This document shows, one piece after another, positions 2,685 through 62,094 of a stretch of 64,000 nt of DNA. The notes beneath the pieces are model-generated. The model did no database searches. It had not been told where the DNA came from and worked only from the letters and a program-made list of their open reading frames with translations. The translations under genes were made by a program, and so were the position numbers. Source of the DNA: Chiloscyllium plagiosum (lineage: Eukaryota). The DNA lies in the NCBI RefSeq assembly GCF_004010195.1, contig NC_057719.1, positions 22,345,174-22,409,173 of the forward strand, given 5' to 3'. Position 1 is the first letter of the stretch, and each line of letters starts with the position of its first letter.

Positions 2685-3050
2685 TTTCTGATGAAAGGTT
2701 TTTGCCTGAAACAAGGAGAAAGTGAGGACTGCAGATGCTGGAGATCAGAGCTGAAAAATATGGTGCTGGAAAAGCGTAGCAGGTCAGGCAGCATCCAAGG
2801 AGCAGGAGAATCGGCATTTCGGGCATAAGCCCTTCTTCAGGAAATCCCCATTTCCTGGAGAAGGGCTTATGGCCGAAACGTTGATTCTCCTGCTCCTTGG
2901 ATGTTTCCTGACCTGCTGCGCTTTTCCAGCACCACATTTTTCAGTTTTTGCCTGAAACATCAATTTTCCTGTTCCTCGGAAGCTGCCTGACCTGCTGTGC
3001 TTTTCCAGCACCACTCTAATCTTGACTCTAATCTCTAGCATCTGCAGTAC
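2685..3050 (+). mobile_element. Penelope-like terminal-repeat fragment interrupted by a second, palindromic Penelope-derived element (2714-2943)
   Basis: 16-bp direct repeat GTTTTTGCCTGAAACA at 2698-2713 and 2944-2959. Inner inverted arms at about 2751-2845 and 2850-2944. Sequence matches the 3' end of the GIY-YIG-bearing element at 19312-19824. Confidence 0.8.
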
Positions 3051-3340
3051 CCAATTCCATCCAAGTGCCCTTGAACTGAGTTATTGAAAAAAAAAATCAG
3101 AGGGGCTCTAGGAGCCAGCAACATTGTTATGGGTTGAGATTACAGACATTGGCCAGATCAGGTGAGGCTGGCAGATTTCCCTCCTTAAAAGACATTAGTG
3201 AACAGGATGGGTACAGGAGGAAAGTTTAGGAGTGATTGAATTTACAGTTGAAGGGAAGGCTGTTTAGGAAGATAATGGAGGCAGCGAGGCAAGAAAAATG
3301 GTGGTGCAATCAATATTATGGAACACCAACACCAACCATA

Positions 3341-5455: not shown

Positions 5456-5584
5456 AGCTTAACGTACAGCTTAATGCATACTTCAGCATTAACTCTTCAG
5501 AACCAGTATCTTCAACAACACTACACTCTTTGATATGAATGTTATGTTTAATAGAACCTATTCTTGTTGGCTTATCTGAGTGCA

Positions 5585-5724
5585 GTGACAAAGTGAGGAC
5601 TGCAGATGCTGGAGATCAGAGTCGAAAAGTGTCGTGCTGGAAAAGCACAGCAGGTCAAGTAGCGTCCGAGGAACAGGAGAGTTGACATTTTGGGCATAAG
5701 CCCTTCATCAGACATGAATACTGT
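5585..5724 (-). mobile_element. Short Penelope-derived terminal-repeat element with TSD
   Basis: 14-bp TSD CTTATCTGAGTGCA at 5571-5584 and 5725-5738. Minus strand carries CTGATGAAGGGCTTATGCCC. Confidence 0.8.
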
Positions 5725-7990
5725 CTTATCTGAGTGCATACCTGATCTTACTAAGTAGGTGCCAGAAGGTTATGGACCCAGGACACCCTGGAAGCAGTCA
5801 GCAGTGCAGTTTATAAAAACACTATAAAACCCCCTGGAAGGCAGGAGGCATCATTGCAGTCAGGTCCAAATGTCTTCAGCAGCCCAGACAGAAATGTTCA
5901 AATCCAGCCACCAGTGAATGTAAAAAAAAACACAAACAAGAAGCCAGTACCAGGGAATGTGGCAAACTGCTGACTCATTCAACTAAACAATAAGTGCTGG
6001 ATTACTACAGATCAGGGATTGTTATAGCGGTGGGGTATCGAAGGATGTACAGAAAGTCCTCCAGGTAGAAATGAGAAGTAGTTGATACCATCAAAGGATC
6101 ACATTGATGGGAGCTTTGACCAACCATTAAATCAATGGATCAAATGTGCTCATAGAGCGGTCATTTCAAAATAGGATCAGCAGTGTAAAAAAACAGGTCA
6201 CAATAATTTGTAGGCACCCAGGATACATTGAAGAACAAGATATTTTTCTCTTTGAGGATGTTATAGACAATATCTGGTGTGCAGGTTGCCGTGTAAATAC
6301 TTAATTACACCTTTAACCTAAAATAGTTATTGAGCATCTGCAAAAAGAGCTACATCGTAGTGATGCTAGATCACATGGGTCTGTCAGGTTCCAGAATAAA
6401 TTCTCACCAATTATTCCTTTTTTATAAGTACATCTAATAAAGCTTGTTCATATTTATTCACTGGAGTGTAGATATCATCCTGCTGAGTTCATATCATTTT
6501 CAATGGCTAGAACACCAACTTACCAAAGAATTTCCTTTCTGGGGAGAACAATATCGATACTGTGGGTGCACCTGCCTTCAGAAAGGGCTGAAAATATGAT
6601 TGGAGGCTGATGCTGTAACTGCAAGAGACTTTGAGGTTAGGATGAGATGTGGGATGCAAGGGCTGGATAAAATTGAAAATGGATGATGAGATTAACAGTT
6701 TGTGGGAACTTGGCAGATCCTGTTAATGTTCAATTCCCTGAGTGTAGGCTTGATCTTCCTGTGCCAGAGTCAGCACTGCTCAGCTTTCTGCCAAGTCTTT
6801 AGTCAGCCAGCATCTTGAGCCAACACTTGCAATCAAATAAGTGAAGGAAAAGCGGAAGTTTGAATGCTATCCACCTGCAGGGCACCAGGTACAGACTGGT
6901 CACCACTTATGATGCTTATGCTTGAAAAATGGCGTGGACTAATACTCAGCCATTTGACAATAGGCTTGCAAAGGTAAACAAAGTACTTCACAGGAAAAAG
7001 AACCTGACAGTGACAATAGAATTTCTTTCCTTCAATTCACCAACTTTATTTTCATTGGCAAGCCTGATTCACTGTTTATTTGCTGATCTCACTGAAAACA
7101 TAAATCTTTCCTATGCTGATTTAATTCCTCAAATATAGTACCCTGAAAAGAGGAATAAAGTAACTTTGAAGAATATCATGGCCTATCTGCACTTAAGCAG
7201 ATTTGTCTGTACTGTAACTTTATTGGAACTGGTTGAAATTTGGCAGCCCCCAACCAGAGTCACATGGTGGAGATCACATGACTAAGGCAAGACAGGAGGC
7301 ATATTGATGCAGATTCTATTCCTATCCCAAACAGATTGGCTGGCCTTATTCGAACCGATTACTACTTTCTTAAGTTGTCAAGTGGCAATACTGGTGTAAG
7401 AAGCCATTTCAGGGTTTCTTAACTCAGAAATCAGTCCATTGCATTTGATCCAATAAATGCCTCACACAAGTGAAAATAAAGTTTGATCGCAAGGAAATTG
7501 GATGACTTTTTTTTGGCTCAGATTGCATAGATCAGATTAGTCACCTCCAATTTAAATTTCAATATTATACCTGAATCTCATTTTAAATCATCCATTGTTT
7601 ACAGAGAATTTTTATCAAGAATTATAAGGAAACACAAATTATATTCAATGGCTCAGATGGTTCAGTCATGTTTGCTGATGCTTGATGCTGAAAGTGCAAT
7701 TTAATGTCATGTTTTGAGATGACTTTGGATGCAAGGTGACAAGGGGAGGTGAGCTGAGCACCATGTCTCATTTCCGCATCTGGTCGTATTAACAATTTGG
7801 CTCCATTAAATTCATGGTATGTTCATCATTTTTTTTTCAAAAAGTGACATGCACATTTAAAGTGATATGAAAACAAAGGTTTACACATAAATGATAAATA
7901 ATTCGTTTTGTTCCCTTTGGCTGAGATCGTCAAGGATCATGCTGACAAAACTAGTGGAGTCTTGATAGTGACAAGGTAAACTCTTTTGTA

Positions 7991-8206
7991 GGAACAAATT
8001 ATTGCAGATGCCTGGAATCTGTACTGAAAACAACTGCTGGAGATCACAGTGAGTCAGCCAGCATCCATGGAGAGAGAGCAAGCTAACGTCTCGAGTCCAG
8101 ATTACTCTTCATCTGATGAAGAGTCATTTAGACTTGAAATGTCAGCTTGCTCTCTGTCTATGGATGCTGTCTGACCCACTGTGATATCCAGCATTTGTAA
8201 TTTTCA
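7991..8206. mobile_element. Palindromic Penelope-derived element with TSD
   Basis: 15-bp TSD GTAAACTCTTTTGTA at 7976-7990 and 8207-8221. Inverted arms at about 8022-8113 and 8115-8209, centred on CTCTTCATC-T-GATGAAGAG. Confidence 0.8.
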
Positions 8207-12361: not shown

Positions 12362-13554
12362 AAAAAACAAAGAACTGCGGATGCTGGAAGTCAGAAACAA
12401 GACAGAATTGCTGGAAAAATTGAGCAGGTCTGGCAGCATTTTTGGAGCGAAAGCAGAGTTAATGTTTTGGGTCCGATGATCCATCTTCAGAACTGATTTT
12501 AACTCGTAAAGGGGTGATACATATGCTACAGATGGGATGGGGGAGAGAGGAGGAGTAAATGATAAATGGAGATTGAGCCCAGAGAGACAGAGAAACAGTT
12601 GGGCAGATAAAAGAATGGATAATAGTCAGACTGGGAGTAGCAATAGTTGCTTTTGGGGTCTATTAGTGGTTGACAATGTTTGTGGTAGCAACCCGTATAA
12701 TGGCAAGGTCTGGTGTGTGGGGTTTGGGGTAAGCACACGGAAGGAGGTGTTCAGGCCCTAAAATTATTGAATTCAATATTGAATCCAGAAGGCTAGAGGG
12801 AATACAATTGGAAATGGGATGTTGTTCTTTCAGCTTGCACTGAGCTTCACTGGAACATTGCAGCAATTCTGGGACAGAGATGTTGACCAGGGAGCACAGT
12901 GGTGTGTTGAAATGGCAGGTAACAGGAAGCTCAGGGTCATTTTTGTAGACAGAACGTGAGTGCTCTGTAAAGCAACTGCCCAGTCTGCTTTTTGTCTCCC
13001 CAGTATAGAGGAGACCACATTGTGAGCATGGAAAATGGAAGGCTAGATTGAGTGAAGTACAGGTAAATCGCTGCTTCACCTGGAAGGTGTGTCTGTGGCA
13101 TTGGATAGCGAAGAGGGAGGAAGTAAGTGGGCAAATGCATGGGAAGGTGTCGTTAGTGTTTGGGGAGGAGTTGGGAGTGGAGAAGGAGCAGACCAAGGTG
13201 TTCCAAAGGGAACAGTACCTGTGGAAGGCTGACAAGGGAGGGGAGGGAAATATGTATCTGATGAAAGCATCCTGCTTGAGGTGGTAGAAATGGCAGCTAA
13301 TGATCCTTTGGATGCTGATGTTGGATGCTGATGCCTATGTTGTTACATGAGAACCAGAGCGGCCTGTCACTATTGTGGGAGGGAAGAGAAGGGGGTGAGG
13401 GTTGAAGCATGGGAAATGGATCGAATACAACTGAGGTCCTTATCAGCCATGGTGTGGGGAATCCTTGATTGAGGAGGAAGATGGACATTTCTGAGGACCC
13501 CTTGTAGAAGCTGGTATCAATGAAACGTATGCGGCAGAGATGAAGAAACTTCCA
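12362..13554 (-). mobile_element. Penelope-like element 3' part with GIY-YIG endonuclease remnant
   Basis: ORF 12663-13235 contains QRFTCTSLNLAFHFPCSQCGLLYTGETKSRLGSCFTEH...PVTCHFN. Imperfect 13-bp TSD TTCACTTC(C/A)TCAA at 12349-12361 and 13555-13567. Confidence 0.9.
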
Positions 13555-13716
13555 TTCACTTCATCAATTCTGCCATTTGAGGCTTGCTTCTGGCTTGACT
13601 TGATTTCTGTCACAGTTACTGAGGACTTTTTTCCTGGGAAAATAAAGAAGTCAAATATTGTAATGATACTGTCTCTATTCAATCACTTCAGCATCTAGGA
13701 TCAGACTTAAAACTGT

Positions 13717-13756
13717 TTATTCCTGATGAAGGGCTTTTGCCCGAAACGTCGATTTT
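13717..13756 (+). ncRNA. Minimal type-I hammerhead ribozyme motif (Penelope-associated)
   Basis: CTGATGA (13723-13729), extra A, GGGC-TTTT-GCCC, GAAAC, GTC. Stem II is perfect, stem III is the palindrome ACGT, stem I is weak. It sits within a roughly 95-bp Penelope-derived insert (13717-13807). Confidence 0.65.
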
Positions 13757-14254
13757 GCTGCTTGTGGAAGGTGCCTGAATTGCTGTGCTCTTCCAGCACC
13801 ACTGATCCTTAAATCTGTCACTGCTTGTTATTCACCAAGCTGTGTTGCTCTCTAAGTTACATCTGTTGTAAATTGATTAATTTTGTCAAATAGTGTATAT
13901 TGTTCATTGGTTATCTTATTCACGGATTTCCTCCTGACTCATGCAACTTGAGCACTTTTCAGTGTTAATAGCAGTGCAAATCATTTGTGCCAATCCACTA
14001 TAGTCAAAGGTTCCCATCTTGTTCACAGTATGAAACAAATTTCTTATGCTGACACAACTAATCTCAATGGATTCTTTGATTTGTTTAAATTCCTACACGA
14101 GTCTAGGGAACCTTATGCAATCTTGGAGATTGTCTATAGACCAGTTGTTACACAGCTAAGTGTTCTCTGACTGAATGTGCCTTGACTGGTTTTTCCTTAC
14201 CTTTACATTATTTAAATCTTCTGCCATTTGAAGAAGTTGGTAGCGTCGGATGCT

Positions 14255-18170: not shown

Positions 18171-19311
18171 TTTTTTATTGCTCTTTTCTTTGAGCAGTGA
18201 AGGTAAAAGATATTGATTCTTCAGGTGCAAATCTTCATCAGAACGGAAAACTGAAGGATAAGCAAATTTCTTTATAAATTTGAAGTAAATGGAAGGATGA
18301 AATAAAAGAAATTCCATTCCAGTGAGAAAGTAAATGGGTTGGATCTGTTAGATGACATTAAAGATTATCACAAGGCAAAGAAAAGACATTTTAAAAATGG
18401 CAAAACAACATGAAATTTGCTAACATGCTGTAAAATCGAGGAAGATGCCGAACAGAAGGAATTGACCCCATTGTCACTGAAGCATTAGTTGAGCCTGGTT
18501 AAAGTAGTGGACGGAATCATGGAGGGTTAAGATAAGAACGGCAGAGGGATTAAGTAGTAAGGCAAAGACAGTGTAAGATTCACAAATAATTACTTTCGTT
18601 TATTGAAAGGCAAATTATTGAGAATATAATAAAGTAGGTCAGTAGATTTGAGTCATTATAAAACAAATTAAATGAGTAATAACTAACTCAACTCTTAAGT
18701 ATTTTCTGTAGAGTAACTTAGATTTCCATAGAGACGTAATCCGAATTACCTAATTCTAGCTGGTATAGGTATACAAGGCCTTTGGCTTGACAACCCATGT
18801 AAAAAACAAGTTGCAGGATTCTTGCTCCTGATTGTGCATGTGTTAGGTTTCTTGATAGTTGTAAACTAGGCCTGTTTTAGGAGTCCTCTGCTAAATTGGC
18901 AAATGCTAAATGGAACAGAAACTTTTAGCAGCCACAATGATATGTTGATGTGAAATCAAAAGAAATTAGTGATCTCTTCTAGGCTCCACACCAGGTCTGG
19001 AATCTGCTATTAACTCATGATCCACCCTTCTATTGCACTTCCTAAGATTTAACTAATAGTTGCTACTGGCAAGAGACAGAGCCTGAAATTTATCCTTCTC
19101 AAATAGACATGTGGCCTCTGGAGATGCAACAGGCACACAGCAACTTGTCCAAATTGATACAGGTGGACTGAGGGTTAATCTCAGCTGTGCCTCAGGCCTC
19201 CAGACTCATCCGTGAGTCTTTAACCATTTCAAAACCAATGCCTCATATGACAATGTAGAACAGAATTTGGAGATATTAGTGGTCTGATAGCTACTAGGCA
19301 ATCTTAACCCA

Positions 19312-19824
19312 ACCACCCCGTGGCTCAACACTTCAACTCCCCCTCCCACTCCAACGACATGCAGGTCCTTGGACTCCTCCATCGCCAGACCATAGCAACA
19401 CGACAGTTGGAGGAAGAGCACCTCATCTTCTGCCTAGGAACCCTCCAACCACAAGGGATGAACTCAGATTTCTCCAGTTTCTTCATTTCCCCTCCCCCCA
19501 CCTTGTCTCAGTCCCAACCCTCGAACTCAGCACCGCCTTCCTAACCTGCAATCTTCTTCCTGACCTCTCCGCCCCCACCCCCACTCCGGCCTATCACCCT
19601 CACCTTAACCTCCTTCCACCTATCGCATTTCCAACGCCCCTCCCCCAAGTCCCTCCTCCCTACCTTTTATCTTAGCCTGCTTGGCACACTTTCCTCATTC
19701 CTGATGAAGGGCTCATACCCGAAACGTCGATTCTCCTGCTCCTTGGATGCTGCCTGACCTGCTGCGCTTTTCCAGCAACACATGTTCAGCTCTGATCTCC
19801 AGCATCTGCAGTCCTCACTTTCTC
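19312..19824 (+). mobile_element. Young 5'-truncated Penelope-like element (GIY-YIG C-terminus plus 3' repeat)
   Basis: ORF 19320-19544 reads AQHFNSPSHSNDMQVLGL...RQLEEEHLIFCLGTLQPQGMN. Perfect 13-bp TSD CAATCTTAACCCA at 19299-19311 and 19825-19837. Confidence 0.92.
19695..19734 (+). ncRNA. Minimal hammerhead ribozyme motif in the Penelope 3' repeat
   Basis: CTGATGA (19701-19707), extra A, GGG-CTCATA-CCC, GAAAC (19721-19725), GTC. Confidence 0.65.
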
Positions 19825-20369
19825 CAATCTTAACCCAGCTGACAACCACCATCTACAAAGGCTGAATTGATAAAGGAAAGAAAATTGGCAACAATGTAAT
19901 GAGAATCCAGAAAATTCTAGAAATCCAAAAAGAAGGTCAAATTAAGTATACCCATCTGTATTGTTTGTCGAGCTCTTTCATTCTTTAGATATTCTTAGAT
20001 ATTTCTTCATTTCAGATTCACTCCTCACTTTCTTCCAGTTTCACAAGGTTTTCCCATGTTCTTCGTTTGCATAAAACATTGAATGATGTACAATGAACAA
20101 ACAAAATCTGTTACTTTTGTCACTGGTTATAGAAAATTTAAATCAACCATTCCTATGTGTTGCTGCACTCTAGAGTAGATGGATGTTTAACCAGTATCTT
20201 CCAGCAAAGAAATAGGGACAATGCCACTGCACCATTACAGCTCACCAAATGCCTGTTATATGCTTTATCTCAATGTGATGCTTCTTGGTTTCAGCACTAC
20301 ATTCAGCCTCATTTCATGATTAATTTTAACCATGTTGTATTAGAACAAAAATATGCAGCAATGGCTAAA

Positions 20370-20869: not shown

Positions 20870-22560
20870 GTTGTATTGAGTAGTTTGAATCTCCCTGAAA
20901 AGATACATTTGTCAAGGCTTTCCACCTGCAATCATCAGGAAAAGAGGATTGTAATTGGGAGAGATATTGACATGGAGAATGTACCAGTTAGATGATGGCT
21001 GACAGTTAATGTCCAGTATGTGCATGTTGTAACGATGCTGCCCCTTGAACAAGGTTATTTTGTCCTTGACATTTTTTAAAGAGAGGTTGTAAAGGCAGAG
21101 GTGCTGAAATGTCTGACAATAAGCCTAGTTTAACAATGGCAGCGGAGTGGCCAGTTCTCCCAGTTCAGTGTTTTTCTAGTTTCTTTTAATTGTAACAGTG
21201 AGAAGTTGCTGCCATCCAGAGAAAGATTCCAAGCTTCAGCAGATGATTCCGACTGGCTTCTCTCTCTGGAATCTCTTCTGCCTGTAAGAACCTGTGTTTG
21301 AATTTACTTTTTGCCAAGCGGTGTGTTTAAGGGATATTGTGGGAATTGGAAAGCTCTTTAGTTGAGTTGCTCTATTAAATTGGTTTGGTTTTCAAATAAT
21401 TAAATTATTCAAAATTCTGTTTTCTATTGTTTGTGTTTCAATTGTAGTGTTTAAATAAATAATGTTTTGCTTCAAGCTGAGTGGTTTGTCCAGCTGCATC
21501 ACTTCTTGGCTATCCACTCTACATCTGCCTTTAAAATAAGAAAAAGTTAGGATCTGGGCTACCTTCTGAAATATTTTGACAGAGTCTTGCTTGCACGACA
21601 TTGTGCACTAAATTGCAAGCTAAACAGACAATTGTAAACAGGCTGTCAGCATAATTCTTGGTGCAATCAGTATAATTTAGTAAATGTTATCCAATCTTGG
21701 AATCATAGCTAACATTAGATCATTTTTCGTTGTATATTGTGCAGTTTCATGCACAGGCCTAAGGCCCTTGGTTTTGGGCCAGAATAATATCCAGGCTGTC
21801 TCAGATTACTGTGTAAGGACAAAGTATGTCAAAATTATGAGCAATGGCTGAAGCTAGCTATTTTACATTGCTACAATCCAGTTGCAACAGAAAAGGTATT
21901 CATAATGAATAGGTGCTTCTGTCAGGCTAGGAAGATGTTCTGCCTATCACATAAGTCAGTTATGATGTTAGGTACATAGGCCCAATGACTGATGGGTAGT
22001 TTTCAAACAGAACATCCTCAAAGCAGTTTGCAACAAGCAAGATACTAGCTGTACCCAACCTGTCCATAGTATTAAATTCAAAGCACAGTGTCCAACATTA
22101 AATGTGATTCAGTTATTGGCTAATGTTATTAAATAACTTTGGGCATGGTCTGAATTACATTGCCAAACAATTTTGGAATGTCAGTTGGACTTACAATGTG
22201 GTGCACTTGCACATACTGGAAGCTACTGACAAACAAAAAGAACATGTGACCATGATGCACCTGTTTCAACCGAGCAGAACAAGTCACAGCCATTCTCTGA
22301 TCCATTTCTCAGAGCAATCAGAGTCAACAGCAGCTGGTTTAAAATTTCAACAAAACGTGGAAGTTAGCTGTCTGCCATCATCTAACTGGTGCATTCTCCA
22401 TTGCAAAAGCTCACCAAATAGAGTCGACATGTAAACCGATCAGTGCTTTCTTCTCATACGATATAAACATTATGTATGCATTTTTTGGAAATTGTCCTGA
22501 TAAGTGCAAGATGAAAAACGTCCACAAAATGTGTTTTTTGTCTCAATAGTCAAGTTCTGT
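20870..22560 (+). mobile_element. Old Penelope-like element of a second family, with an inverted terminal-repeat copy upstream and interrupted by a solo LTR
   Basis: ORF 22123-22434 remnant LLNN...VVHLHILEATDKQKEHVTMMHLF resembles the PLE GIY-YIG C-terminus. Degenerate hammerhead core at 22492-22527 (+) and an inverted counterpart at about 20905-20945. Confidence 0.6.
21028..21600 (+). mobile_element. Probable solo LTR (573 bp)
   Basis: TGT...ACA termini, near-TSD ATGT/TTGT and AATAAA at about 21454. A related 3'-end sequence occurs inverted at 59397-59543. Confidence 0.6.
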
Positions 22561-23959
22561 ATTGCCAAATGACTATTAACTATTTCCTTTGACTAATAAA
22601 TTAAATCCAACACTAATACTTCTCCAGTATTATTTCAAATTCTGATATAGAGGGTTGAAATCTTAGAAAACGCCAAGCATTCATTCACCTGCTCACTTAA
22701 TTAATGCCTTTAATAAATCATTAGTGACTGGAGGGTGAGTAACGGTCCAAAAAGCAGCACGAGCTTCCTTCTCTGCACCAAATTTCCAAGTAGCACTTCT
22801 GCTTCTCACACCCAATCTGCATTGTTTCTACTTTGCTCTTACTCTATGCATTCATAAAACCTATCTACATGTTTGTCCCAAACATGATTGGAAATAATTA
22901 GTTTGAAGTGTTGGTATTAATTTTATTTTTCATTAAAGATGATTCACTGCCACCCACTCAATGCTATCAACCAAGATAAATTTGTACGGTCACACAACAG
23001 TATTTAAATTAATGGTTTGAAACATCATTATAAATTTTTAAATTGAACAGACAGTGTAGAAAAGTGCTTTAGAGAAAGAAATCTGCCATCCTTACCTGGT
23101 CTAGCCTAGATGTGATTTGAGCCCATTAGCAATATGGTTGTCCTGCACAATTAGAGATGGACAATAAATGATAAGCATAACTAGCAAATCCCACATCCTA
23201 AGAATGAATAAAAGAAAAATAAACTTAGCACAGCATTTCTAGGATTTCAGGTGAAGTCTTCACTCCATTTTCCACTTTGAGAAGCCAATAGCCAGTTAAA
23301 ATATCAGAGACAAATATTTCATCTATGGCCCCGACTTCACTTGAATGGCTTGACTCTTCTCTTTCATGTTTTGTGTTCTTTCATGTTTATTTTCATTTTC
23401 CACCGATTGTATTTATTTCTCTTCTTTGAGGAAAATATCACTGTCTTCTCATATAGTTTTCCAAAGCAAGAATATCCAAATGACAGCAAGTTGTCCCAGA
23501 TTTTTGACAACAGAGCTGTTGCAATTCAATCACAATCCTTACTTGCTGATGAGTGTTTGAATTTTTCAGGTTTGGAGGTTTGTGAAGCCCTGGTCTTATT
23601 GTCATTATTTAAATAAATTGTAAATTCAATAAACACTTGAATAACAGTAACCTGAGATATACAAAATAAATAACTTGTGGAGCAATAGTAATGTCCTTAC
23701 CTCAGAGCCAGAAGATTTCTGAAGTGTGTAAGAACTATTTTGAATAACTTGATTTGGAAGTATCACTATAAGTTAATAAGATAATTGATTTAATGTTTAA
23801 ATGTTCTGACAACAATCACCTGCCTCCAATCCTGTTAACTCCTATTGACTGGTGTTCTTCCTTCTCTCATTTGCCTCTAACCTAAGAATATCAACAGGTC
23901 TCCTCAATGTCTAAACTGATAAAACCAAAAGGGCCTGCTTCTCAAAAGGCAACTAAGAG

Positions 23960-31675: not shown

Positions 31676-32985
31676 GTGCAGATTACTGTTATTTTTCCCA
31701 AAGTGAATCACCTCACATTTATTGGCTTTGAACTCCATTTGCCACCTCTCAGCCCAATCCTGCAGTTTAATCAAGTCCCCTGCAACCTGCAACATTCTTC
31801 CACACTGTCCACTATTCCATCAACTTTTGTGTCATCTGCAAACCTACTAACCCATCCATCTATGCCTGCACTAAGTCATTTCTAAAAATGACAAGCAGCA
31901 GTGGTCCCAAAACATATCCTTGTGGCACATCACTAGTAACCAGACTCCAAGCTGAATATTTTCCATTAACCACCACGTGTTGCCTTCTTACAGAAAGCCA
32001 ATTTCTAATCCAAACTGCTAAATCACCCTCAATCCCATGCCTCTGCATTTTCTCCAATTGCCTACCATGTGGAACCTTATCAAAGGCTTTACTGAAATCC
32101 ATGTCCACCACATCAACTGCCCTACCCTCATCTACACGCTTGGTCATGTTCTCAAAAAATTCAAAGATGTTTGTGAGACATGACCTGCCCTTGACAAAAT
32201 CATGTTGACTATCTCCCATCAAGTTGTTGCTTGCTAGCTGATTATAAATCCAATCTCTTATAAAAATTTCCAAAACTTTTCCTACAACACATGTAAGGCT
32301 CACTGGTCTATAATTACCTGGATCATCTCTGCTGCCCTTCTTGAACAAGGCATGACATTTGCAATCCTCCAGTCCTCTGGTACTAAATCTGTAGATAATG
32401 ACAACTCAAAGATCAAGGCCAAAGGCTCCACCATCTCCTCCCTAGCTTCCCAGAGAATCCTCAGATAAATTCCATCCAGCCCAGGGGATTTATCTGGTTT
32501 CACACATTCTAGAATTGATAACACTTCCTCCTTACTGACCTCAATCCTTTCAAGTCTAATAGTCCCTATCTCAGTCTTTTCCTCTAAATTATTCTCCTTT
32601 CTTTGTGTGAAAACAGATGAGAAATATTTGTTTAGCACCTCTCCGATCTCCACAGGGTCCGCATACAACTTCCCACTTCTGTCTTTGACTGGACCTATTC
32701 CTAACTTCGTAATCTTTTTATTCCTCACATACCCATAGAAAGCTTTAGGGTTCTCCTTTACTCTAACTGCTAAAGACTGCTCATGTTCCCTCTTTGCTCT
32801 TCTTAAGTGTCTCTTTAAATCCTTCCTAGCTAATCTGTACCTCTCCATCGCCTGAACCATCTTGTCTCAACGTCACATAAGCCTCCCTCTTCTGTTGAAC
32901 AAGCGATACAATTTATTTAGTAAACCACGGTTCCCTTACCTTATCACTTCCTCCCTGCCTGACAGGGACATACCAACCAAGGACA
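31676..32985 (-). mobile_element. CR1 LINE ORF2 internal fragment (RT), frameshifted
   Basis: ORFs 32300-32860 and 31860-32348 contain KSPGLDGI, VPEDWRIANV, PGNYRPVSLT, QHDFVKGRSCLTN, DFSKAFDKVPH and VPQGYVLGP. Confidence 0.95.
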
Positions 32986-35654: not shown

Positions 35655-36527
35655 ATATGCATTTTAATGCAAGAGAAACGTCAAATACCAACGCTTAAAT
35701 CTAAAGACATAAGAACTTTTGGGAACAGGAAAAGCCTAATTAATATAATAAACCATTCCTTCTTAATTGATCATCATCCATCTAGCCAACTTCACATCAG
35801 GAGGTAAATATTCTTCTGTTCATTAGGTGTAAAATGTTGCAAAAGATGTATTCATCATAAAGTCAAATGGGAACAATTTTATGATCTAATTTAAATTGCT
35901 TTTACACACAAGCACCAGAGAAATATTAATCACATCCTCCTCAAACATGTCTCTGTCCAAAAAACAGGAACAAAACAATTAGTCTTTCCACTTCAGTGAT
36001 CATCCTTGGTAAAATTGTGCACAAATCTATTACAAAGAAATGAGAAAGAAAGGTATATATACATGCATGTGTATGTGTGTATCATCATTCACACCCTCCT
36101 GATAAATGTTTTGGTGAGCACCAATTGTTTGAGCAACAGTGAGAACTGCTGGGCTTTGGCATCATTACTTGGAAAAGGAGGTTGATGCCTGGTGGACTGT
36201 TGTATTTGGAAATGTGAAATGTTTGGGAATGCACCTGCAATCTGCTGCTGACAAGTGAGTAATAAGTGCCACAACCTGAACTGCATTAGGTCTGGGTGTC
36301 GATATCACTGAACAGATTGTGCCATCTCATGATTATCAGGTCATGCTGGTAACAATGGCCCTTCAGAGTGATGTCAGGATATCTTATATTAATGTCTGCC
36401 CAAAAAGGTGTTTGTGATGGAGCATTCATTTAGCATGTCCTTGTACAGCTGTGAAATGTGGATGTCATATAGTTGCCAAGAGAAGATGTTCAACAGTTTC
36501 CATCTTCATTGTCTCTGATTACCAGTA

Positions 36528-36737
36528 GTCATGATTTGGAGATGCTGGTGTTGGACTGGGGTGCACAAAGTTAAAAATCACACAACACCAGGTTATAGGC
36601 CAACAGGTTTAATTGGAAGCACTCTAGCTTTCGGAGCAACGCTCCTCACACAATCACCTGATGAAGGAGCAGCACTCCAAAAGCTAGTGTGCTTCCAATT
36701 AAACCTGTTGGACTATAACCTGGTGTGTGATTTTTAA
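36528..36737. mobile_element. Palindromic hammerhead-bearing element with TSD (third family)
   Basis: 13-bp TSD CTGATTACCAGTA at 36515-36527 and 36738-36750. Inverted arms span about 36569-36739. Core reads CAC-CTGATGA-A-GGAG..CTCC-AAAAGCTA-GTG. Confidence 0.8.
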
Positions 36738-42010: not shown

Positions 42011-43639
42011 GTCTATGTACTGTCATTTTGTGTATAATCAGGAGAGACTCCGTCAAGACCAATAATAGACAACAGAACAGAGAAGAATGTAAAACAGAAA
42101 CCAACAATAGAATAAGAGACTTTCAATGATAGGTAAAGGGTTCAAAAGTTTAAAGATTGATTAATGTGAAGAAGTTGTTAAAGCAGGTACCATTCCAATA
42201 AAGTATTATAATGAAGAGAAATTCAGAATGGCTTTGGAGGTCAAATAGGAGAGAGTGATGTCTGCCCAATATGTGCATGAGATTGCCACATTAGTTGCAC
42301 TCCCTTCTTGAAGCTGGCATCAGGTATCTCAGACCATTTGTAGATGCTGGAGAGCTGCTGGCAACAGTGGATGCTCACCTACAGCAAGGTAGCTGAGGAG
42401 GGCAGAAAATAATCTGGCTGCCAAATCAGGCCTTGACTGGAGATTGGATGTGATCCTAGATGGGGGAGGTTTGGTCTTTGTCAGACTGACAGTGGGATAT
42501 GTTTTGTCAGATCCCAGGACAGATTTGGTCATCCTGACCCTGCAAATTTTAAAAGTATTCAATTTTTGAGCATTCTCTGGTGGACCCAATGACTATGTCA
42601 CTCAATGCCTGGTAAAGTAGAAGTGTGAATGGTGACTGCATATTTTGTTCTCTTCATGTCTGAACATTGAAATGATGCTCCTAAAAAGGCATGGAATAAG
42701 GATTCCATATTTAAGCAGCATCATACCTGAATCAGACTGAAATTCTTAACACTCATTTATGTGACCTGCCTGAAATCCAATAAATTCAATGTCAATGATG
42801 TGGCAAATATGTTTTCAATCCATCATGTTTTTTATCGACGTTTGGGGTATTATCAGACAGTGTAAATCATGATGATGCAACCGATAATATGATAATACAA
42901 CACTCTGACATCTGTAGAGTGAAAACACCAGCCTAGAATGAGCCTGTGACAAGAGAGGTCTGAGATAATACATCAGGGAGTTGTATTTGCTAACTATGTA
43001 CCAATCTAAATAGAGGAGTGTTACAGTAAAGAAAGAGTTAATGTTAAGGAGCAAGCAGCCTCAGGGAAAGTATATGCGCAGATACAACTTGAGACACAGA
43101 CTCATATCTGAAGAAAGGTCAGAGACTCAAAACACTAATTCAGTTTTTGTACCACAGATGTTGCCAAACCTGCTGAGTTTCTCCAGCAAGTTCTGTGTTT
43201 GTTTCAGATGTCGAGCATCCACAGTTCTTTGTTTAATTTAGTCCCTTAATGCGCATGTAGAAGTATTGGCTTGAAACACAAATAAAATAGGGCAGAAAGG
43301 CCTATGTTGTGCTTATGCAGAAGTCTAAGTTTGGCTTAAAGTTCATTGGAGTTTGTCCATCTCTAGTAGTGGCTGGATTGCCTTGTCACTGAAAACTTCC
43401 CTGAGTATAGGTAAATGCAATTATTCACCTGAAGAATTTAAATGGACTCACAGATGATGAGAAAGACATGTAGAGGTATCATGTTGACTTTGCCAGGAAA
43501 GGAATTTAAAGTAATGGTATCACAAAGTGCTGGAGAAACTCAGCAGATCTGGCAGCATCTGTGGAGAGAGAAGGTTTGGTTCAGTGTGATTTTTCAACTT
43601 GAAACATTATCTTTTCTTCTGTCCCCACAGATGCCCTCT

Positions 43640-44412
43640 ACTTTTTTGTCATTTACATAAATGATTTGGATGCGAGCATAAGAGGTACAGTTAGTAAGTT
43701 TGCAGATGACACCAAAATTGGAGGTGTAGTGGACAACGAAGAGGGTTACCTCAGATTACAACAGGGTCTGGACCAGATGGGCCAATGGGCTGAGAAGTGG
43801 CAGATGGAGTTTAATCTGGATAAANNNNNNNNNNNNNNNNNNNNNNNNNNNNNNNNNNNNNNNNNNNNNNNNNNNNNNNNNNNNNNNNNNNNNNNNNNNN
43901 NNNNNNNNNNNNNNNNNNNNNNNNNNNNNNNNNNNNNNNNNNNNNNNNNNNNNNNNNNNNNNNNNNNNNNNNNNNNNNNNNNNNNNNNNNNNNNNNNNNN
44001 NNNNNNNNNNNNNNNNNNNNNNNNNNNNNNNNNNNNNNNNNNNNNNNNNNNNNNNNNNNNNNNNNNNNNNNNNNNNNNNNNNNNNNNNNNNNNNNNNNNN
44101 NNNNNNNNNNNNNNNNNNNNNNNNNNNNNNNNNNNNNNNNNNNNNNNNNNNNNNNNNNNNNNNNNNNNNNNNNNNNNNNNNNNNNNNNNNNNNNNNNNNN
44201 NNNNNNNNNNNNNNNNNNNNNNNNNNNNNNGGCTGGTACAATTGCAACATTTAAGAGGCATTTGGATGGGTATATGAATAGGAAGGGTTTGGAGGGATAT
44301 GGGCCGGGCGCTGGCAGGTGGGACTAGATTGGGTTGGGATATCTGGTCGGCATGGACGGGTTGGACTGAAGGGTCTGTTTCCATGCTGTACATCACTATG
44401 ACTCTTTGACTC
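43640..44412 (+). mobile_element. Young CR1 LINE 3' part spanning an assembly gap, inserted in a Penelope-derived repeat (43520-43635 and 44415-44495)
   Basis: SKFADDTKIGG...WAEKWQMEFN before the gap and the CR1 3' UTR after it. Confidence 0.9.
43825..44230. other. Assembly gap (N run)
   Basis: Run of N. Confidence 1.
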
Positions 44413-44807
44413 TTTGTTGCCAGGCCTGCTGAGTTTCTTCAGCATGTTTGGTTTTCATTTCAGATTTCCAGCATCCGCAGTATTTTGATTTTGTTGTAAG
44501 AGATTTAAATGAAGATATTGTTGAGTTGGATGAAGAGAGATCACGTAAAAACAGTAGGAGAAAGAAGTGATCATGGATCAGATCGATGTGACAGATCTTC
44601 TTGAAAGTAGGTTGGGAACAAGAATTTTCTTTTTTGCTTTCGTAGTGCTTTACCATTGATGCAATGTAATGTACTTTTTCACAGTAGGTATTTGAAGACA
44701 AATTTTAAAATGAGTTTCCAATAAATCACCTATATAGTGACTTGGGGTTTTTGACTACACTAGCTGGGTTAGTAGCATTGGCATAACTAGTTGTTTCCTG
44801 TGAACAA

Positions 44808-44984
44808 CAGAGCAGGCCCAGCAGCATCACAGGAGCAGGACAGATGATGCTTTGGGTCCTGATGAAGGGTCGCAACCAGAAACATCGACTCTCTTGTTCC
44901 TCTGATGCTGCTTGACCTGGTCTGCTTCTTCCAGCTCCACGCTTTTTCAACTCTCACTTTCCAGCCTCTGCAGTCCTCACTAAC
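44808..44984 (+). mobile_element. Penelope-derived, partly palindromic element with TSD and hammerhead-like core
   Basis: 12-bp TSD TCCTGTGAACAA at 44796-44807 and 44985-44996. Core reads GGGTC-CTGATGA...GAAAC-ATC-GACTC. Confidence 0.75.
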
Positions 44985-45094
44985 TCCTGTGAACAATACA
45001 CTTGTTTGCAACTATGTGGTTCAATACCATGTCATTTTTGGAAGGTACCTTTCCTGATTCTAAATTGATTTATAAATTGAAAAAAAATTAAAAA

Positions 45095-45440
45095 ATCATG
45101 AGGGGCATGGATAGGGTAAATCGACAAGGTCTTTCCCCTGGGTTGGGTGAGTCCAGAACTGGAGGGCATGGGCTTAAGGTGAGAGGGGAAAGATTTTAAA
45201 GGAACCTAAGGTGTAACTTTTTCACACATAGCATTATGCATGTATGGAATGGGCTGCTGGAGGCTGATACAATTACAACATTTCAAAGGCATCTGGATGG
45301 GTATATGAATAGGAAGGGTTTGGAAGGATATGGGCCAAGTGCTGGCAAATGGGACCAGATTAATTTAGGATATCTGGTCAGCATGGATGAGTTGGGCCAA
45401 ACCGTCTGTTTCTGTGTCGTACATCTCTATGACTCCATGA
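45095..45440 (+). mobile_element. CR1 LINE 3' fragment
   Basis: AAAATCATGAGGGGCATGGATAGG...CATCTCTATGACTCCATGA. Confidence 0.9.
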
Positions 45441-45453
45441 GTGTAATAATTTC

Positions 45454-45945
45454 ATAGAGTCATTAAACATGGAAACAGACCCTTCAGTCCAACCAGTCCA
45501 TGCCAATCACAATCCCAAACTAAACTACTGTAGTCCCATCTGCCTGTGCTTTGCCCATATCCTTCCAAGCCTTTGTTATTCACGTACTAATCCAAATATC
45601 TTTTAAACGTAACTGTACCCGCAACTACCACTTCCTCTGGCAGTTCATTCCATACACGAACCACTCTCTGTGTAAAAATGTTGCCCCTCATGTCCTTTTT
45701 AAATTTTTCTCACTTTAAAATATGCCCAGTGGTCTTGAAATCCCCCACTCTAGGTAAAAGACACCTGCCATTCACCTTACCCATGCCTCTCATGATTTGA
45801 AACAAACTTCTCTAAGGCTATCCCTCAATCTCCTACTGTGAATTCAGCCCTAGCCTCTCCCTATACATAACTCAAACCTTCCAATCCTGGTAACGTCCTG
45901 GTAAATCTTTTTGGAACCCTTTCTTGATAATATCCTTCCTTTCAG
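45454..45945 (-). mobile_element. CR1 LINE 3' fragment, tail-to-tail with the previous copy
   Basis: CATAGAGTCA...GGAAACAGACCCTTCAGTCCAAC is the reverse complement of the CR1 tail. Confidence 0.9.
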
Positions 45946-49270: not shown

Positions 49271-50050
49271 GTGTGCTGGGATGAGATTGAATGACGTTGG
49301 GATTTTGAGAAGCTGCTTGGGAAATATATCATCACCTGTCGTGTGCTGTAATTTTGCTGTTTTGTTTTCGTGTGACTCATTATGTGTGGGGCCTACTAGA
49401 CAAGTTAATGACTACAGAATTCCTCCTGTGTACATTGCTCGATGATCACTGTGCTGAAATGTTGCTGTTTCCCTTCCCACTATTCACCCGTTGTTGACTT
49501 GTTTATTCATGTGCCTAACAGAAGGGACACGTTCCAAAAGCAATATGGGGCGCTGCTTTCTTCAAACTACTTTTGGAATCTCACCAGAATATTCCCCGCC
49601 CCTATTCTTTCTCTGTCTCACACGCGCATTTCTTTTAGAGACTTGTTCATTTTAGGAGCCCGTGTCGCTTTCTCCTTGGCACATTAAGCTGCAATCCACG
49701 CTCAACTGTAACATTTCCTATTGATCCGCATTCTCAGCGGTTCGCCTTGTCAAACGCTGATCTCACTCCGAGAGTTGGCGGCAGCGAGAACTGATGTATT
49801 CAAGCCATTTGTCTGGCCATGGAGCTGGGACTGGCTGTGAAATTCACGAATCCTGGGCTAAAGATAGTGAAAGGCATCAGGGAGAGCTCTTTTGTGTGTG
49901 TGTGTTTCTTCAACAGGCACTGGTCACGTTTAAGAGTTCCTGTTAGTCTCTGGCAGAGGGTTCACTTAAAGATGTGCACTGCATCCCGCTAAGGCCTTAT
50001 CGAATATTTTCTACATTCAGCAGAAACCAGAGTGAATATCTCCTGCAGCT

Positions 50051-50147
50051 ACAAAGTTAAAAATCACACCACACCAGGTTATAGTCCAACAGGTTTAATT
50101 GGAAGCTCACTAGCTTTCGGAGCGACGCTCCTTCATTAGGTGATAGT
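50051..50147 (-). mobile_element. Single-arm copy of the 36528-36737 family
   Basis: Near-identical to the left arm of that element. Minus strand reads TCAC-CTAATGA-A-GGAGC-GTC-GCTCC-GAAAGCTA-GTGA. Confidence 0.85.
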
Positions 50148-59645: not shown

Positions 59646-59794
59646 AGTGTGACTTAGTCAGTCATAGGTTGTGGATGGAGGAGCCTGAGGTGAGTTGACT
59701 TCAGTGTAGTTTGGAGCTTGATCAGCTATGCTCCATTCATCATAACAGTGGCACAAATTTAATCTGAGAAATCACCAACTCATCAATCTAATTT

Positions 59795-60378
59795 CAGTGT
59801 GTTGCTGGAAAAGTGCAGCAGGTCAGGCCGCATCAAANNNNNNNNNNNNNNNNNNNNNNNNNNNNNNNNNNNNNNNNNNNNNNNNNNNNNNNNNNNNNNN
59901 NNNNNNNNNNNNNNNNNNNNNNNNNNNNNNNNNNNNNNNNNNNNNNNNNNNNNNNNNNNNNNNNNNNNNNNNNNNNNNNNNNNNNNNNNNNNNNNNNNNN
60001 NNNNNNNNNNNNNNNNNNNNNNNNNNNNNNNNNNNNNNNNNNNNNNNNNNNNNNNNNNNNNNNNNNNNNNNNNNNNNNNNNNNNNNNNNNNNNNNNNNNN
60101 NNNNNNNNNNNNNNNNNNNNNNNNNNNNNNNNNNNNNNNNNNNNNNNNNNNNNNNNNNNNNNNNNNNNNNGGCCTTGGAGGGAAGTGAGGGGGGGAGGTG
60201 TGGGCGCAGGTTTTGCATTTCTTGCGGTTGCAGGGGAAGGTGCCGGGAGTGGAGGTTGGGTTGGTGGGGGGTATGGACCTGACGAGGGAGTCACGGAGGG
60301 AGTGGTATTTTCGGAACGCTGATAGAGGAGGGGAGGGAAATATATCCCTGGTGGTGGGGCCTGTTTGGAGGTGGCGGT
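59795..60378 (-). mobile_element. Young Penelope-like element spanning an assembly gap
   Basis: Terminal-repeat sequence before the gap. After the gap the sequence is CpG-retaining and colinear with 13100-13295. Confidence 0.85.
59838..60170. other. Assembly gap (N run)
   Basis: Run of N. Confidence 1.
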
Positions 60379-62094
60379 TCCTTCGTCATTTCCTCCACCT
60401 CCATTCCCCTCACTTCCCTCCTTTCTGACTCCTTAAAAACAAATGTTAGGTGTGTAAGGGAGGATTTTCCATTTATACGTATGAGTGCAACTCCAACAAT
60501 ATGCCAGAAGTGCATCTTGATTGGCATCTAATTCACCACCTTACACATTCACTCCCACCACCACCAGCTCATTGGCTGCAGTATGTGCCATCCATAAGAT
60601 GCAGTGTAGAAACCCACTCAGACATCTTTGACATGCTCTAAACTCATTACCTTTACCATATAGAAGGATGAGAGGTGAAGGTGCACGCAAACACTGCTAA
60701 CTGTAAGTTCTCTGATCAAGTGGCCTGGAAATACGTTCCTCTCTTCTTCATCAGTGGATCACAATCCTGGGCCTTTCACCTTAACAGTGTTTTCATCTTA
60801 TAGGCTGAAGCCATCTCAAGGGCAGCTTAGGATAATTAATAAATGTTTGGCTTGCCATTGATGCACTTGTGCCCATTAGTGAAGCAAATAAACTTGGAAG
60901 GCCAGTAAAAAGAGAATTGAAGGAGTTGAAGCTGGAGGTGATAAAGTTAGACTGACAGTTTGACTACTGGCGGAGGAGAGCTTAGGTTCATGAACAGACA
61001 TACGATACGGATGAATAAATAGGAAATCTTGTTGATAGGTTCAAAAAGTAAAGCTGAAACTCAATTGAGGGTAAAATAAGGACATCAAAATTGTTCTGAG
61101 TGAGCAACGGGGGAGAGATTTTAAAAGAAACTCCACAAGATAGCTTTATACTTACCAATGTATTTGCATACAAGTGCTCTTTCTGCTGTTTTACTGAATT
61201 CAGTAACCATCTCTAAATAACTGGATTCACCACTGCATTAAAACTTTAACAAAGGAACAATGTGCTAATTTCTGTACAACTTTTTATAGAACATGGAATT
61301 TTGCAGAAAAGCGTTTAATGCCTATGTGCAATCTGTAAACAAAGTACGTTTTAAACATTTTATTAAGGTAACTTGCAAGTATTTACTGTTTCAGAACGCA
61401 TGGTCAAATGGCAAGTATATTTAAAAATTCCAAATTCAACAAAATAAGCTGATGCCATTCATATGTTAAAATTTAGTGTGAATCTGCAGTAAATGTGAAA
61501 ATAGGGTACAAGATGCTTTTCTAAAAGAGTGGGAACAGCTGTTCGCACTACAAAGCAAATCCACTTGTGAAAAATATCAAGCATGTTAATTACTATGACA
61601 GTAATTTCCCCTTTATCCATCTTTTCCAGCACAAAATCAATCCATTTGCACTTATTTTATCATATAAAGATAATCTATTGTTCTGCCACCCTCATTTTAC
61701 TGGTGCGATTATGTCCTGATAGCAGTTACAGTGAAGTATCGTCGTAAACAATCTGAATGATAAGTCAAATGGAGTAGCTGTACCTTTCACTAGCAATATC
61801 AAGTTCTGTATTCAATGTCAAGGTTTTTCATCATTTTGATCTGCAGAAGATTAATACCAATTTTCATTTCTGATTTCCTTTTACCTTAGGAACAACAACT
61901 TGTCTCAAATAATATTGTGTCTGTAGTAACTAATCATAGTTAAAAAGTAGAAGTTTACACTTAATGGTTTTGAATAAAGGGACATTTTGGGATGGTTTAT
62001 AGAAGTGTAAGAAATTGGATCAAAGCCAAGAATGCAATGAAACATGTGTAATGAGGATTCATCAAATGAATTTTCTTTTTAACCTAGTTTTCCA

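What the first reader, a model, noticed from the sequence alone, without database searches (positions are those of the whole stretch)
13717..13756. Minimal hammerhead-ribozyme motifs recur across several Penelope-derived families, with co-varying stems
Seen in sequence: the core CTGA(T/A)GA...GAAA recurs with different but self-complementary stem II sequences. Examples are GGGC-TTTT-GCCC (13723, +), GGG-CTCATA-CCC (19701, +), GAGTC-ATTTA-GACTT (8113, +), GGAGC-GTC-GCTCC (about 50107-50144, -; also 36658, +), GT-GCAAG-AT (22497, +) and GGATC-ATCG-GACCC (about 12455-12495, -). Stem III is reduced to a palindrome (ACGT or AGCT) before the NUH triplet. Stem I can form in some copies (GGGTC/GACTC at 44854-44891; TCAC/GTGA at 50.1 kb). 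Most copies have one extra nucleotide after the CUGANGA box. Established knowledge: Penelope-like retroelements carry minimal type-I hammerheads proposed to cleave as dimers. Inference: this window holds at least four such lineages. The 13.7 kb and 19.7 kb copies have the most intact cores, but their stem I is weak.
Basis: partly seen in the sequence, partly recalled or inferred. Interest (0 to 1): 0.7.

Follow-up and report, generated by a model that had tools for sequence, protein, structure and literature searches.

The report
Shark Penelope hammerheads at transcript start
These motifs are mostly decayed copies of the small, predicted self-cutting hammerhead RNA already known from Penelope-type jumping genes, here in about 190,000 intact cores; most short copies begin just before the motif rather than at its cut site, so they were likely copied from uncut RNA.

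Summary
The motifs are real and belong to a published class: minimal type-I hammerheads in the pseudo-LTRs of Penelope-like elements (Cervera and de la Pena 2014). The window holds at least six lineages. Of the seven listed copies only 13723, 19701 and 8113 keep both core boxes; the other four have a core mutation. Core patterns match 191,743 places in the 3.56 Gb shark-like genome (reversed controls 1,087). Across eight related lineages stem I pairs at 23 of 24 positions with compensatory changes; individual copies decay like dead DNA. Five of the six lineages were linked to RT/GIY-YIG remnants; the 22497 family was not. One family often has an extra G there; another does not. The template was therefore likely uncut RNA that begins at the ribozyme. 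Cleavage was not tested. The scan noted the same reading before on other DNA, this genome included.

The parts
13716..13809 (+). Solo 94-nt Penelope pLTR stub (family A, loop TTTT); begins 7 nt before C3, no tail; 11-bp target duplication with one mismatch at 13706-13716 and 13808-13818
   Evidence: its 30-mer has 15,996 exact copies in the genome
13719..13754 (+). Intact minimal hammerhead: stem I 5' strand 13719-22, CUGAUGA 13723-29, extra A, stem II 13731-42, GAAA 13743-46, palindrome ACGU 13746-49, predicted cut after C13750
   Evidence: sequence
19312..19825 (+). Family B copy: end of the GIY-YIG frame (19308-19460, 21 of 42 residues identical to a longer PLE frame), pyrimidine-rich pLTR, hammerhead 19697-19732 (core intact, one stem II mismatch), tail; 13-bp duplication at 19299 and 19825
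7991..8206 (.). Family D head-to-head pair with junction at 8113-8115; + arm core intact, - arm has two core changes; 15-bp duplication at 7976 and 8207
36528..36737 (.). Family C head-to-head pair; + arm hammerhead at 36658 has G12A; - arm starts inside the motif and carries the tail; 13-bp duplication at 36515 and 36738
50054..50147 (-). Family C solo stub, hammerhead C3 at 50139 with G5A; 6-bp duplication at 50048 and 50148
12367..13334 (-). Family F copy: RT-thumb/GIY-YIG remnant 13334-12663 (56% identical over 175 aa to a longer PLE frame), pLTR, decayed hammerhead C3 at 12490 with stem I AGTT/AACT
22492..22526 (+). Family E decayed hammerhead (G8A): 2-bp stem II, no extra nucleotide, 5-bp stem I in the family majority; link to a PLE frame not shown
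44808..44984 (.). Old head-to-head pair, + arm hammerhead 44854-44891 (both boxes intact, stems II and III damaged); 12-bp duplication at 44796 and 44985
2715..2940 (.). Family B head-to-head pair (hammerheads at 2840 - and 2855 +, each damaged) inserted into the hammerhead of an older copy (2688 and 2946-3064); 16-bp duplication at 2698 and 2944
5587..5717 (-). Family B solo stub with tail, hammerhead C3 at 5711 with G12A; 17-bp duplication with one mismatch at 5568 and 5722
59783..60385 (-). PLE remnant with the CxxxxCxxC linker (CNRKKCKTC); its hammerhead falls in an N gap

Best explanation
These are minimal hammerhead motifs in the pseudo-LTR ends of endonuclease-bearing Penelope-like retrotransposons, left as 90-130-nt decaying copies whose 5' ends pile up just before the motif, likely because reverse transcriptase started inside the RNA and ran to the start of an uncut transcript. 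Shown: the core, the stems, the copy number, the link to RT/GIY-YIG, the target duplications, the two 3' ends (about +90 and +125) and the 5' pile-up. Inferred: the structure is selected only in the source elements, where it would cut weakly and only as a dimer or with protein help (as reported for other PLEs); a TATA-like box at -33 to -40 would start the RNA at or near the first base of stem I; head-to-head pairs would arise when two such cDNAs, one primed from each cut strand, are joined at their ends. Genomic copies are mostly inert.
For: Core patterns: 140,845 and 50,898 matches against 911 and 176 for the reversed patterns. Stem I was not in the pattern, yet 23 of 24 positions pair in eight lineage majorities, with three to four pair types per position; 2 of 40,320 permutations reach this, slid registers give 2-6. 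PLE protein remnants upstream; the longer frame has RT and GIY-YIG relatives, best named ones from sharks and rays. 5' ends of 308 A/B/C copies found by their 3' part in 1.26 Mb: 141 of 229 end at -14..+5 (4.3-4.8 per 100 nt) against 0.3-0.6 per 100 nt in most other bins and 8 of 283 at +26..+30; repeated in DNA fetched later (44 of 70 against 4 of 93) and in copies at least 92% identical. Genome-wide, copies starting at the cut site (468) are no more common than two bases further on (552). Family B: base before the A at -4 is G in 59 of the first 100 matches, against 16 of 100 at the next position (hand counts). 150 of 168 inverted-arm records have the tail on exactly one arm. In the anole element cleavage needed protein and was not needed for insertion, and RT started internally at two sites (PMC11167929).
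Against: No cleavage and no transcript start was measured. The extra G is not general: family A shows 40 G to 60 A (hand count), near background; over all junction positions solo B copies show 19 G of 56 against 15.5 expected (p 0.19); of 22 fetched G cases 13 are inversions, and of 9 solo ones 2 are clearly untemplated and 3 lie in the target. Poseidon-like families have a TATA box at about -50 but no pile-up (0 of 11 at -24..+25). Old D/F/H copies show 5 of 54 ends at +26..+30. The eight lineages are related, so the permutation count is not a p-value. Rfam gives no hammerhead match.
Confidence: 0.8

Rival explanations
1. Same motifs, but the 5' pile-up comes from reverse transcriptase stalling or switching at the folded ribozyme, or from short palindromes there that favour end joining, not from the RNA's 5' end.
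For: 168 of 326 A/B/C copies have an adjacent inverted partner, with junctions at short overlaps; the bin +6..+15 is also raised (1.2 per 100 nt); the G signal is absent in family A.
Against: The enzyme meets the fold from its 3' side, yet ends gather after it has passed through, and drop sharply beyond -14 (3 of 87 at -15..-24); solo copies show the pile-up too; the spacing to the TATA-like box fits a start site.
Confidence: 0.25
2. The ribozymes cut efficiently in vivo and the cut RNA is a main template (unit-length or circular RNA, as proposed in PMC4209133).
For: Core and stems are conserved across lineages; single copies do start at +28; an earlier scan note reports clustering at the cut site in another genome.
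Against: 8 of 283 ends at +26..+30; 468 against 552 genome-wide; the active dimer is 5-15 kcal/mol above the best predicted dimer in all 7 sequences tried, and the 13723 monomer pairs its core with the 3' side (model ignores tertiary contacts).
Confidence: 0.1
3. The short units are a separate non-autonomous family (retrozyme or SINE) that is transcribed and copied on its own.
For: Near-uniform 90-130-nt length, target duplications and very high copy number; a master starting with G would also give the G at -5.
Against: The same sequences continue without a break into GIY-YIG frames in long copies; the window's copies are solo or head-to-head, not tandem arrays; the stubs lack the upstream TATA-like box.
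Confidence: 0.1
4. Chance matches to a short motif.
For: A loose core pattern alone hits unrelated DNA; 2 of the first 100 matches come from an unrelated repeat.
Against: Shuffle and reversed-pattern controls; unimposed stems.
Confidence: 0.01

Closest known systems
Minimal hammerheads (min-HHR) in pLTRs of metazoan Penelope-like elements (Cervera and de la Pena 2014, PMC4209133; parts 1-3 of 4 read, supplement file 2 searched, file 1 not searchable)
   Same: Type I, core boxes, unpaired nucleotide between 9 and 10.1, G10.1-C11.1, palindromic 15.2-16.2, short helix I, several families per genome, mostly single motifs from truncated elements, pairs on opposite strands.
   Different: About 190,000 core matches here against at most about 9,000 reported (different search patterns); no shark in the text read or in file 2; no mapping of copy ends reported there; family E has only a 2-bp helix II.
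Poseidon element of Anolis carolinensis, PAc (Frangieh et al. 2024, PMC11167929; parts 1-2 of 4 read)
   Same: Hammerhead at the pLTR-ORF junction; two 3' ends about 30-40 nt apart (tail); uncut RNA as template.
   Different: Most families here are Neptune-type by their linker; the paper does not map the transcript start.
Neptune-clade EN+ PLEs with inverted pLTR and tail (Craig 2021, PMC8557442; Arkhipova 2013, PMC3846280; passages read)
   Same: C-terminal GIY-YIG, Cys linker, 5' truncation, adjacent inverted copy, tail on one end, TATA plus initiator noted in a rotifer pLTR.
   Different: Here most insertions are reduced to the 90-130-nt end piece, and the truncation point is concentrated at the ribozyme's 5' edge.
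Non-LTR retrozymes (bioRxiv 10.64898/2026.07.22.740005; part 1 of 5 and passages read)
   Same: Type I hammerheads related to PLE pLTRs; found in the one chondrichthyan sampled.
   Different: Retrozymes are tandem arrays; these copies are solo or head-to-head.

Membership tests
PLE minimal hammerhead | CUGANGA and GAAA boxes with a following UH | tested here: met
   Intact in all 11 family majorities and in 3 of 7 listed copies
PLE minimal hammerhead | Helix II opened by G10.1-C11.1 with an unpaired base before it | tested here: met
   family E is the exception (no extra base, G-T or G-C, 2 bp)
PLE minimal hammerhead | Helix III reduced to a palindrome | tested here: met
   ACGT or AGCT in 9 of 11 majorities; D reads ATGT and E AAGATT, both consistent with decay
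PLE minimal hammerhead | Short helix I | tested here: met
   23 of 24 pairs at positions 1-3 in eight lineages
PLE minimal hammerhead | Lies in the pLTR of an RT/GIY-YIG element | tested here: met
   A, B, D, F, H, P1, P2; C by one copy plus shared upstream DNA; E not shown
PLE minimal hammerhead | Self-cleavage as a dimer or with protein help | not testable with these tools
   Needs a bench assay
Rfam hammerhead families | Match to a covariance model | tested here: not met
   No hammerhead family at E up to 10
Neptune clade of PLEs | Cys linker (CX2-5CxxC) between RT and C-terminal GIY-YIG | tested here: met
   CNRRRCNIC in L212, CNRKKCKTC at window 59.8-60.4 kb; feature from PMC8557442 passages
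Neptune clade of PLEs | Position in an RT tree with reference elements | not tested
   No reference elements were fetched
Non-LTR retrozymes | Head-to-tail tandem array of hammerhead-bearing units | tested here: not met
   Window copies are solo or head-to-head

The most novel reading that the evidence does not exclude
In shark Neptune-type Penelope elements the hammerhead is the first 36 or so bases of the capped transcript: stem I begins at the initiator A, so cutting would remove the cap and act as an off-switch for the element's mRNA, while several hundred thousand genomic stubs and hairpins are run-off cDNAs from the internal priming sites to the cap of uncut RNA. That would explain the tail, the inverted pLTR and the kept ribozyme in one scheme.
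Probability: 0.45. Interest if true: 0.6.

Novelty: new member of a known kind. Interest (0 to 1): 0.33.

Why it matters
The motif class is published, so the finding itself is ordinary. What adds value is scale and the record in the copy ends. The role of the PLE hammerhead is still called unclear (PMC8557442 passage). A genome with about 190,000 intact cores lets one read which RNA was copied, and it points to uncut RNA starting at the ribozyme, in line with the one in vitro study. It gives a base-level prediction (cap at -4 in family B, cut at +27/+28) that CAGE and cyclic-phosphate sequencing can test.

Tried and rejected
Rfam, whole window and 13600-13900: no hammerhead family; the microRNA hits are the inverted pairs. 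Pfam on the window's two PLE frames: no family; on longer frames only weak RVT_1 (E 0.054) and GIY-YIG (E 0.3), so identity rests on pairwise and homologue searches. Folding: none of 7 window copies stands out against shuffles (z -1.7 to +0.6). Core against flank within families: non-CpG mismatch 2.1, 3.5 and 4.0% in the core against 5.1, 4.8 and 4.8% in the flank (p 0.03, 0.17, 0.66); G12 sits in a CpG and is changed in 7 of 29, 11 of 67 and 10 of 33 copies; 50 of 131 motif-spanning copies keep an intact core. Sequencing runs: no RNA holder listed. Reads of one poly(A) single-cell run of a related organism lie on both strands, with no place where many molecules begin or end; its commonest loose end, and that of a contig set of unstated kind, is at -4, which reflects genomic copy ends and tests neither cleavage nor a start site; the second raw run laid 0 reads. 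Splicing as the cause of the 5' ends: AG acceptors lie at -2 to -24 in several families, but B ends at -4 where there is no AG and the flanks are unrelated; not supported. No intact pLTR-ORF-pLTR element turned up among 14 loci with long frames. Lunse et al. 2017 was not held; it is cited only through a review passage (PMC6765202). Paper searches: Penelope-like + Neptune + shark 0; Penelope + shark genome + hammerhead ribozyme 0; Penelope-like + hammerhead + TATA 1, unrelated; Penelope + Chiloscyllium 2, listing only. R-scape is not available.

Full report
Observation. The window lies in a 3.56 Gb genome whose PLE protein has its best named relatives in sharks and rays. Positions below count from C3 of CUGANGA = 0. 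A strict descriptor (both boxes, stem II of 3 bp or more, palindrome plus UH) finds 3 sites in the window (8113, 13723, 19701) against 0.05 in shuffles. The four other listed copies each carry a core change (50139 G5A, 36658 G12A, 22497 G8A, 12490 G12A). All are members of repeat families: the 13723 30-mer occurs 15,996 times, and the two core patterns 140,845 and 50,898 times against 911 and 176 for reversed patterns. These counts need no stems; 2 of the first 100 belong to an unrelated repeat.

Families. Clustering 669 core-like hits in the fetched DNA gave the lineages A/B (GGGC/GCCC), C (GGAGC/GCTCC), D (GAGTC/GACTC), F (GGGTC/GACCC), H (GGGT/ACCC), E (GT/AY) and two with a long stem II, P1 and P2. 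Six occur in the window. Upstream of the motif on the same strand lie the ends of RT/GIY-YIG frames for A, B, H, P1, P2, D, F and one C copy, and in the window at 19308-19460 and 13334-12663. A Cys linker marks the A/B/F-type proteins as Neptune-like (feature); 'Poseidon-like' for P1/P2 is my recalled label. For E no link was shown.

Covariation. Stem I was not part of any search pattern. In eight lineage majorities 23 of 24 positions pair (C-G, U-A or A-U at the first; U-A, C-G or A-U at the second; G-C, C-G, U-A or U.U at the third); 2 of 40,320 permutations reach that and slid registers give 2-6. The lineages are related and the majorities include a CpG correction, so this is a pattern, not a p-value. 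Within families the core is only slightly better kept than the flank, G12 decays as a CpG, and 50 of 131 motif-spanning copies are intact. Selection therefore likely acts on source elements only.

Known class. This is the min-HHR of PMC4209133, including the extra nucleotide and the palindrome; that paper found no cleavage for a monomer and low cleavage for dimers. In PMC11167929 the anole ribozyme cut only with protein, cutting was not needed for insertion, and RT began internally at two sites that define the tail. Here 3' ends also fall in two groups, near +90 and +120 to +126.

Copy ends. I found copies by sequence 3' of the cut site and aligned them to long references. In 1.26 Mb, leaving out the copies used to choose regions and counting N-bounded ends as censored, 308 A/B/C copies start at +45 or earlier: 141 of 229 end at -14..+5, 8 of 283 at +26..+30 and 3 of 87 at -15..-24 (first seen in 890 kb). 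Most of this DNA comes from two chromosomes. 168 of 326 copies have an adjacent inverted partner and 150 of those 168 records have the tail on one arm only (each pair is counted from both arms). Window copies carry 6-17-bp target duplications.

Why there. TATAAA lies at -33 (F), -35 (D) and -40 (C), and TTTAT at -35/-36 (H, B). A, B, D, F and H have a pyrimidine-pyrimidine-A ending at -4, and this A forms the outer pair of stem I. The TATA spacing of about 30 nt and the initiator consensus are recalled. In family B the base before this A is G in 59 of 100 matches against 16 of 100 one base on (hand counts), as expected if the cap is copied (recalled from LINE-1). Against: family A shows no excess, 13 of 22 fetched G cases are inversions, only 2 are clearly untemplated, and P1/P2 show no pile-up. 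The D. virilis element starts 46 nt before an intron (PMC2377424 passage) whose end meets helix I, so the geometry differs between clades.

Mechanism. Shown: motif, stems, PLE context, decay, end distribution. Inferred: transcription starts at or near stem I; the element's protein nicks the target and copies from +90 or +125 to the RNA's start, once (solo stub) or from both strands (hairpin); cleavage would be slow, since the predicted active dimer is never the best fold, and would remove the cap. In hairpin insertions the two motifs are on opposite strands and cannot form the dimer.

Verdict. Real; a new member of a known kind. I did not find the start-site reading in the papers searched, but Lunse et al. 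2017 and one supplement could not be read. I stated it before the look-up; earlier scan notes reach the same reading on other DNA and are not independent support.

Noticed in passing
window 2685-3064: A young head-to-head pair is inserted into the hammerhead of an older Penelope copy; the 16-bp duplication covers its stem II and GAAA.
   Followed up: yes
window 31860-32866 (-), 43603-44438, 45068-45721: LINE-type RT fragments (RVT_1, E 5e-21 at 31863-32405); 45068-45721 is an inverted pair that looks like two LINE 3' ends head to head.
   Followed up: no
window 22350-22578 and L172-L190: Family E has two CCAAT-like boxes and TATAAA about 45 nt before a hammerhead with a 2-bp stem II; old (about 80% identity), parent element not found.
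   Followed up: partly
window 19745-19825 and 13765-13809: A stretch shared by families A, B, D and F about 45-105 nt after C3 is predicted to form a hairpin that spans the two 3' end sites; a candidate protein-binding or priming signal.
   Followed up: no
L001-L030, window 59838-60170: Assembly gaps often abut the 5' side of these copies (17 of 166 A/B copies), so long and inverted copies are probably under-assembled.
   Followed up: no
L168:1692-1727: Contigs of one run show short head-to-tail duplications running from -4 to just past the predicted cut site.
   Followed up: no
L211:5547-7925 and L223:4952-6424: Tandem arrays of short units with open frames of 330-490 codons on both strands.
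   Followed up: no
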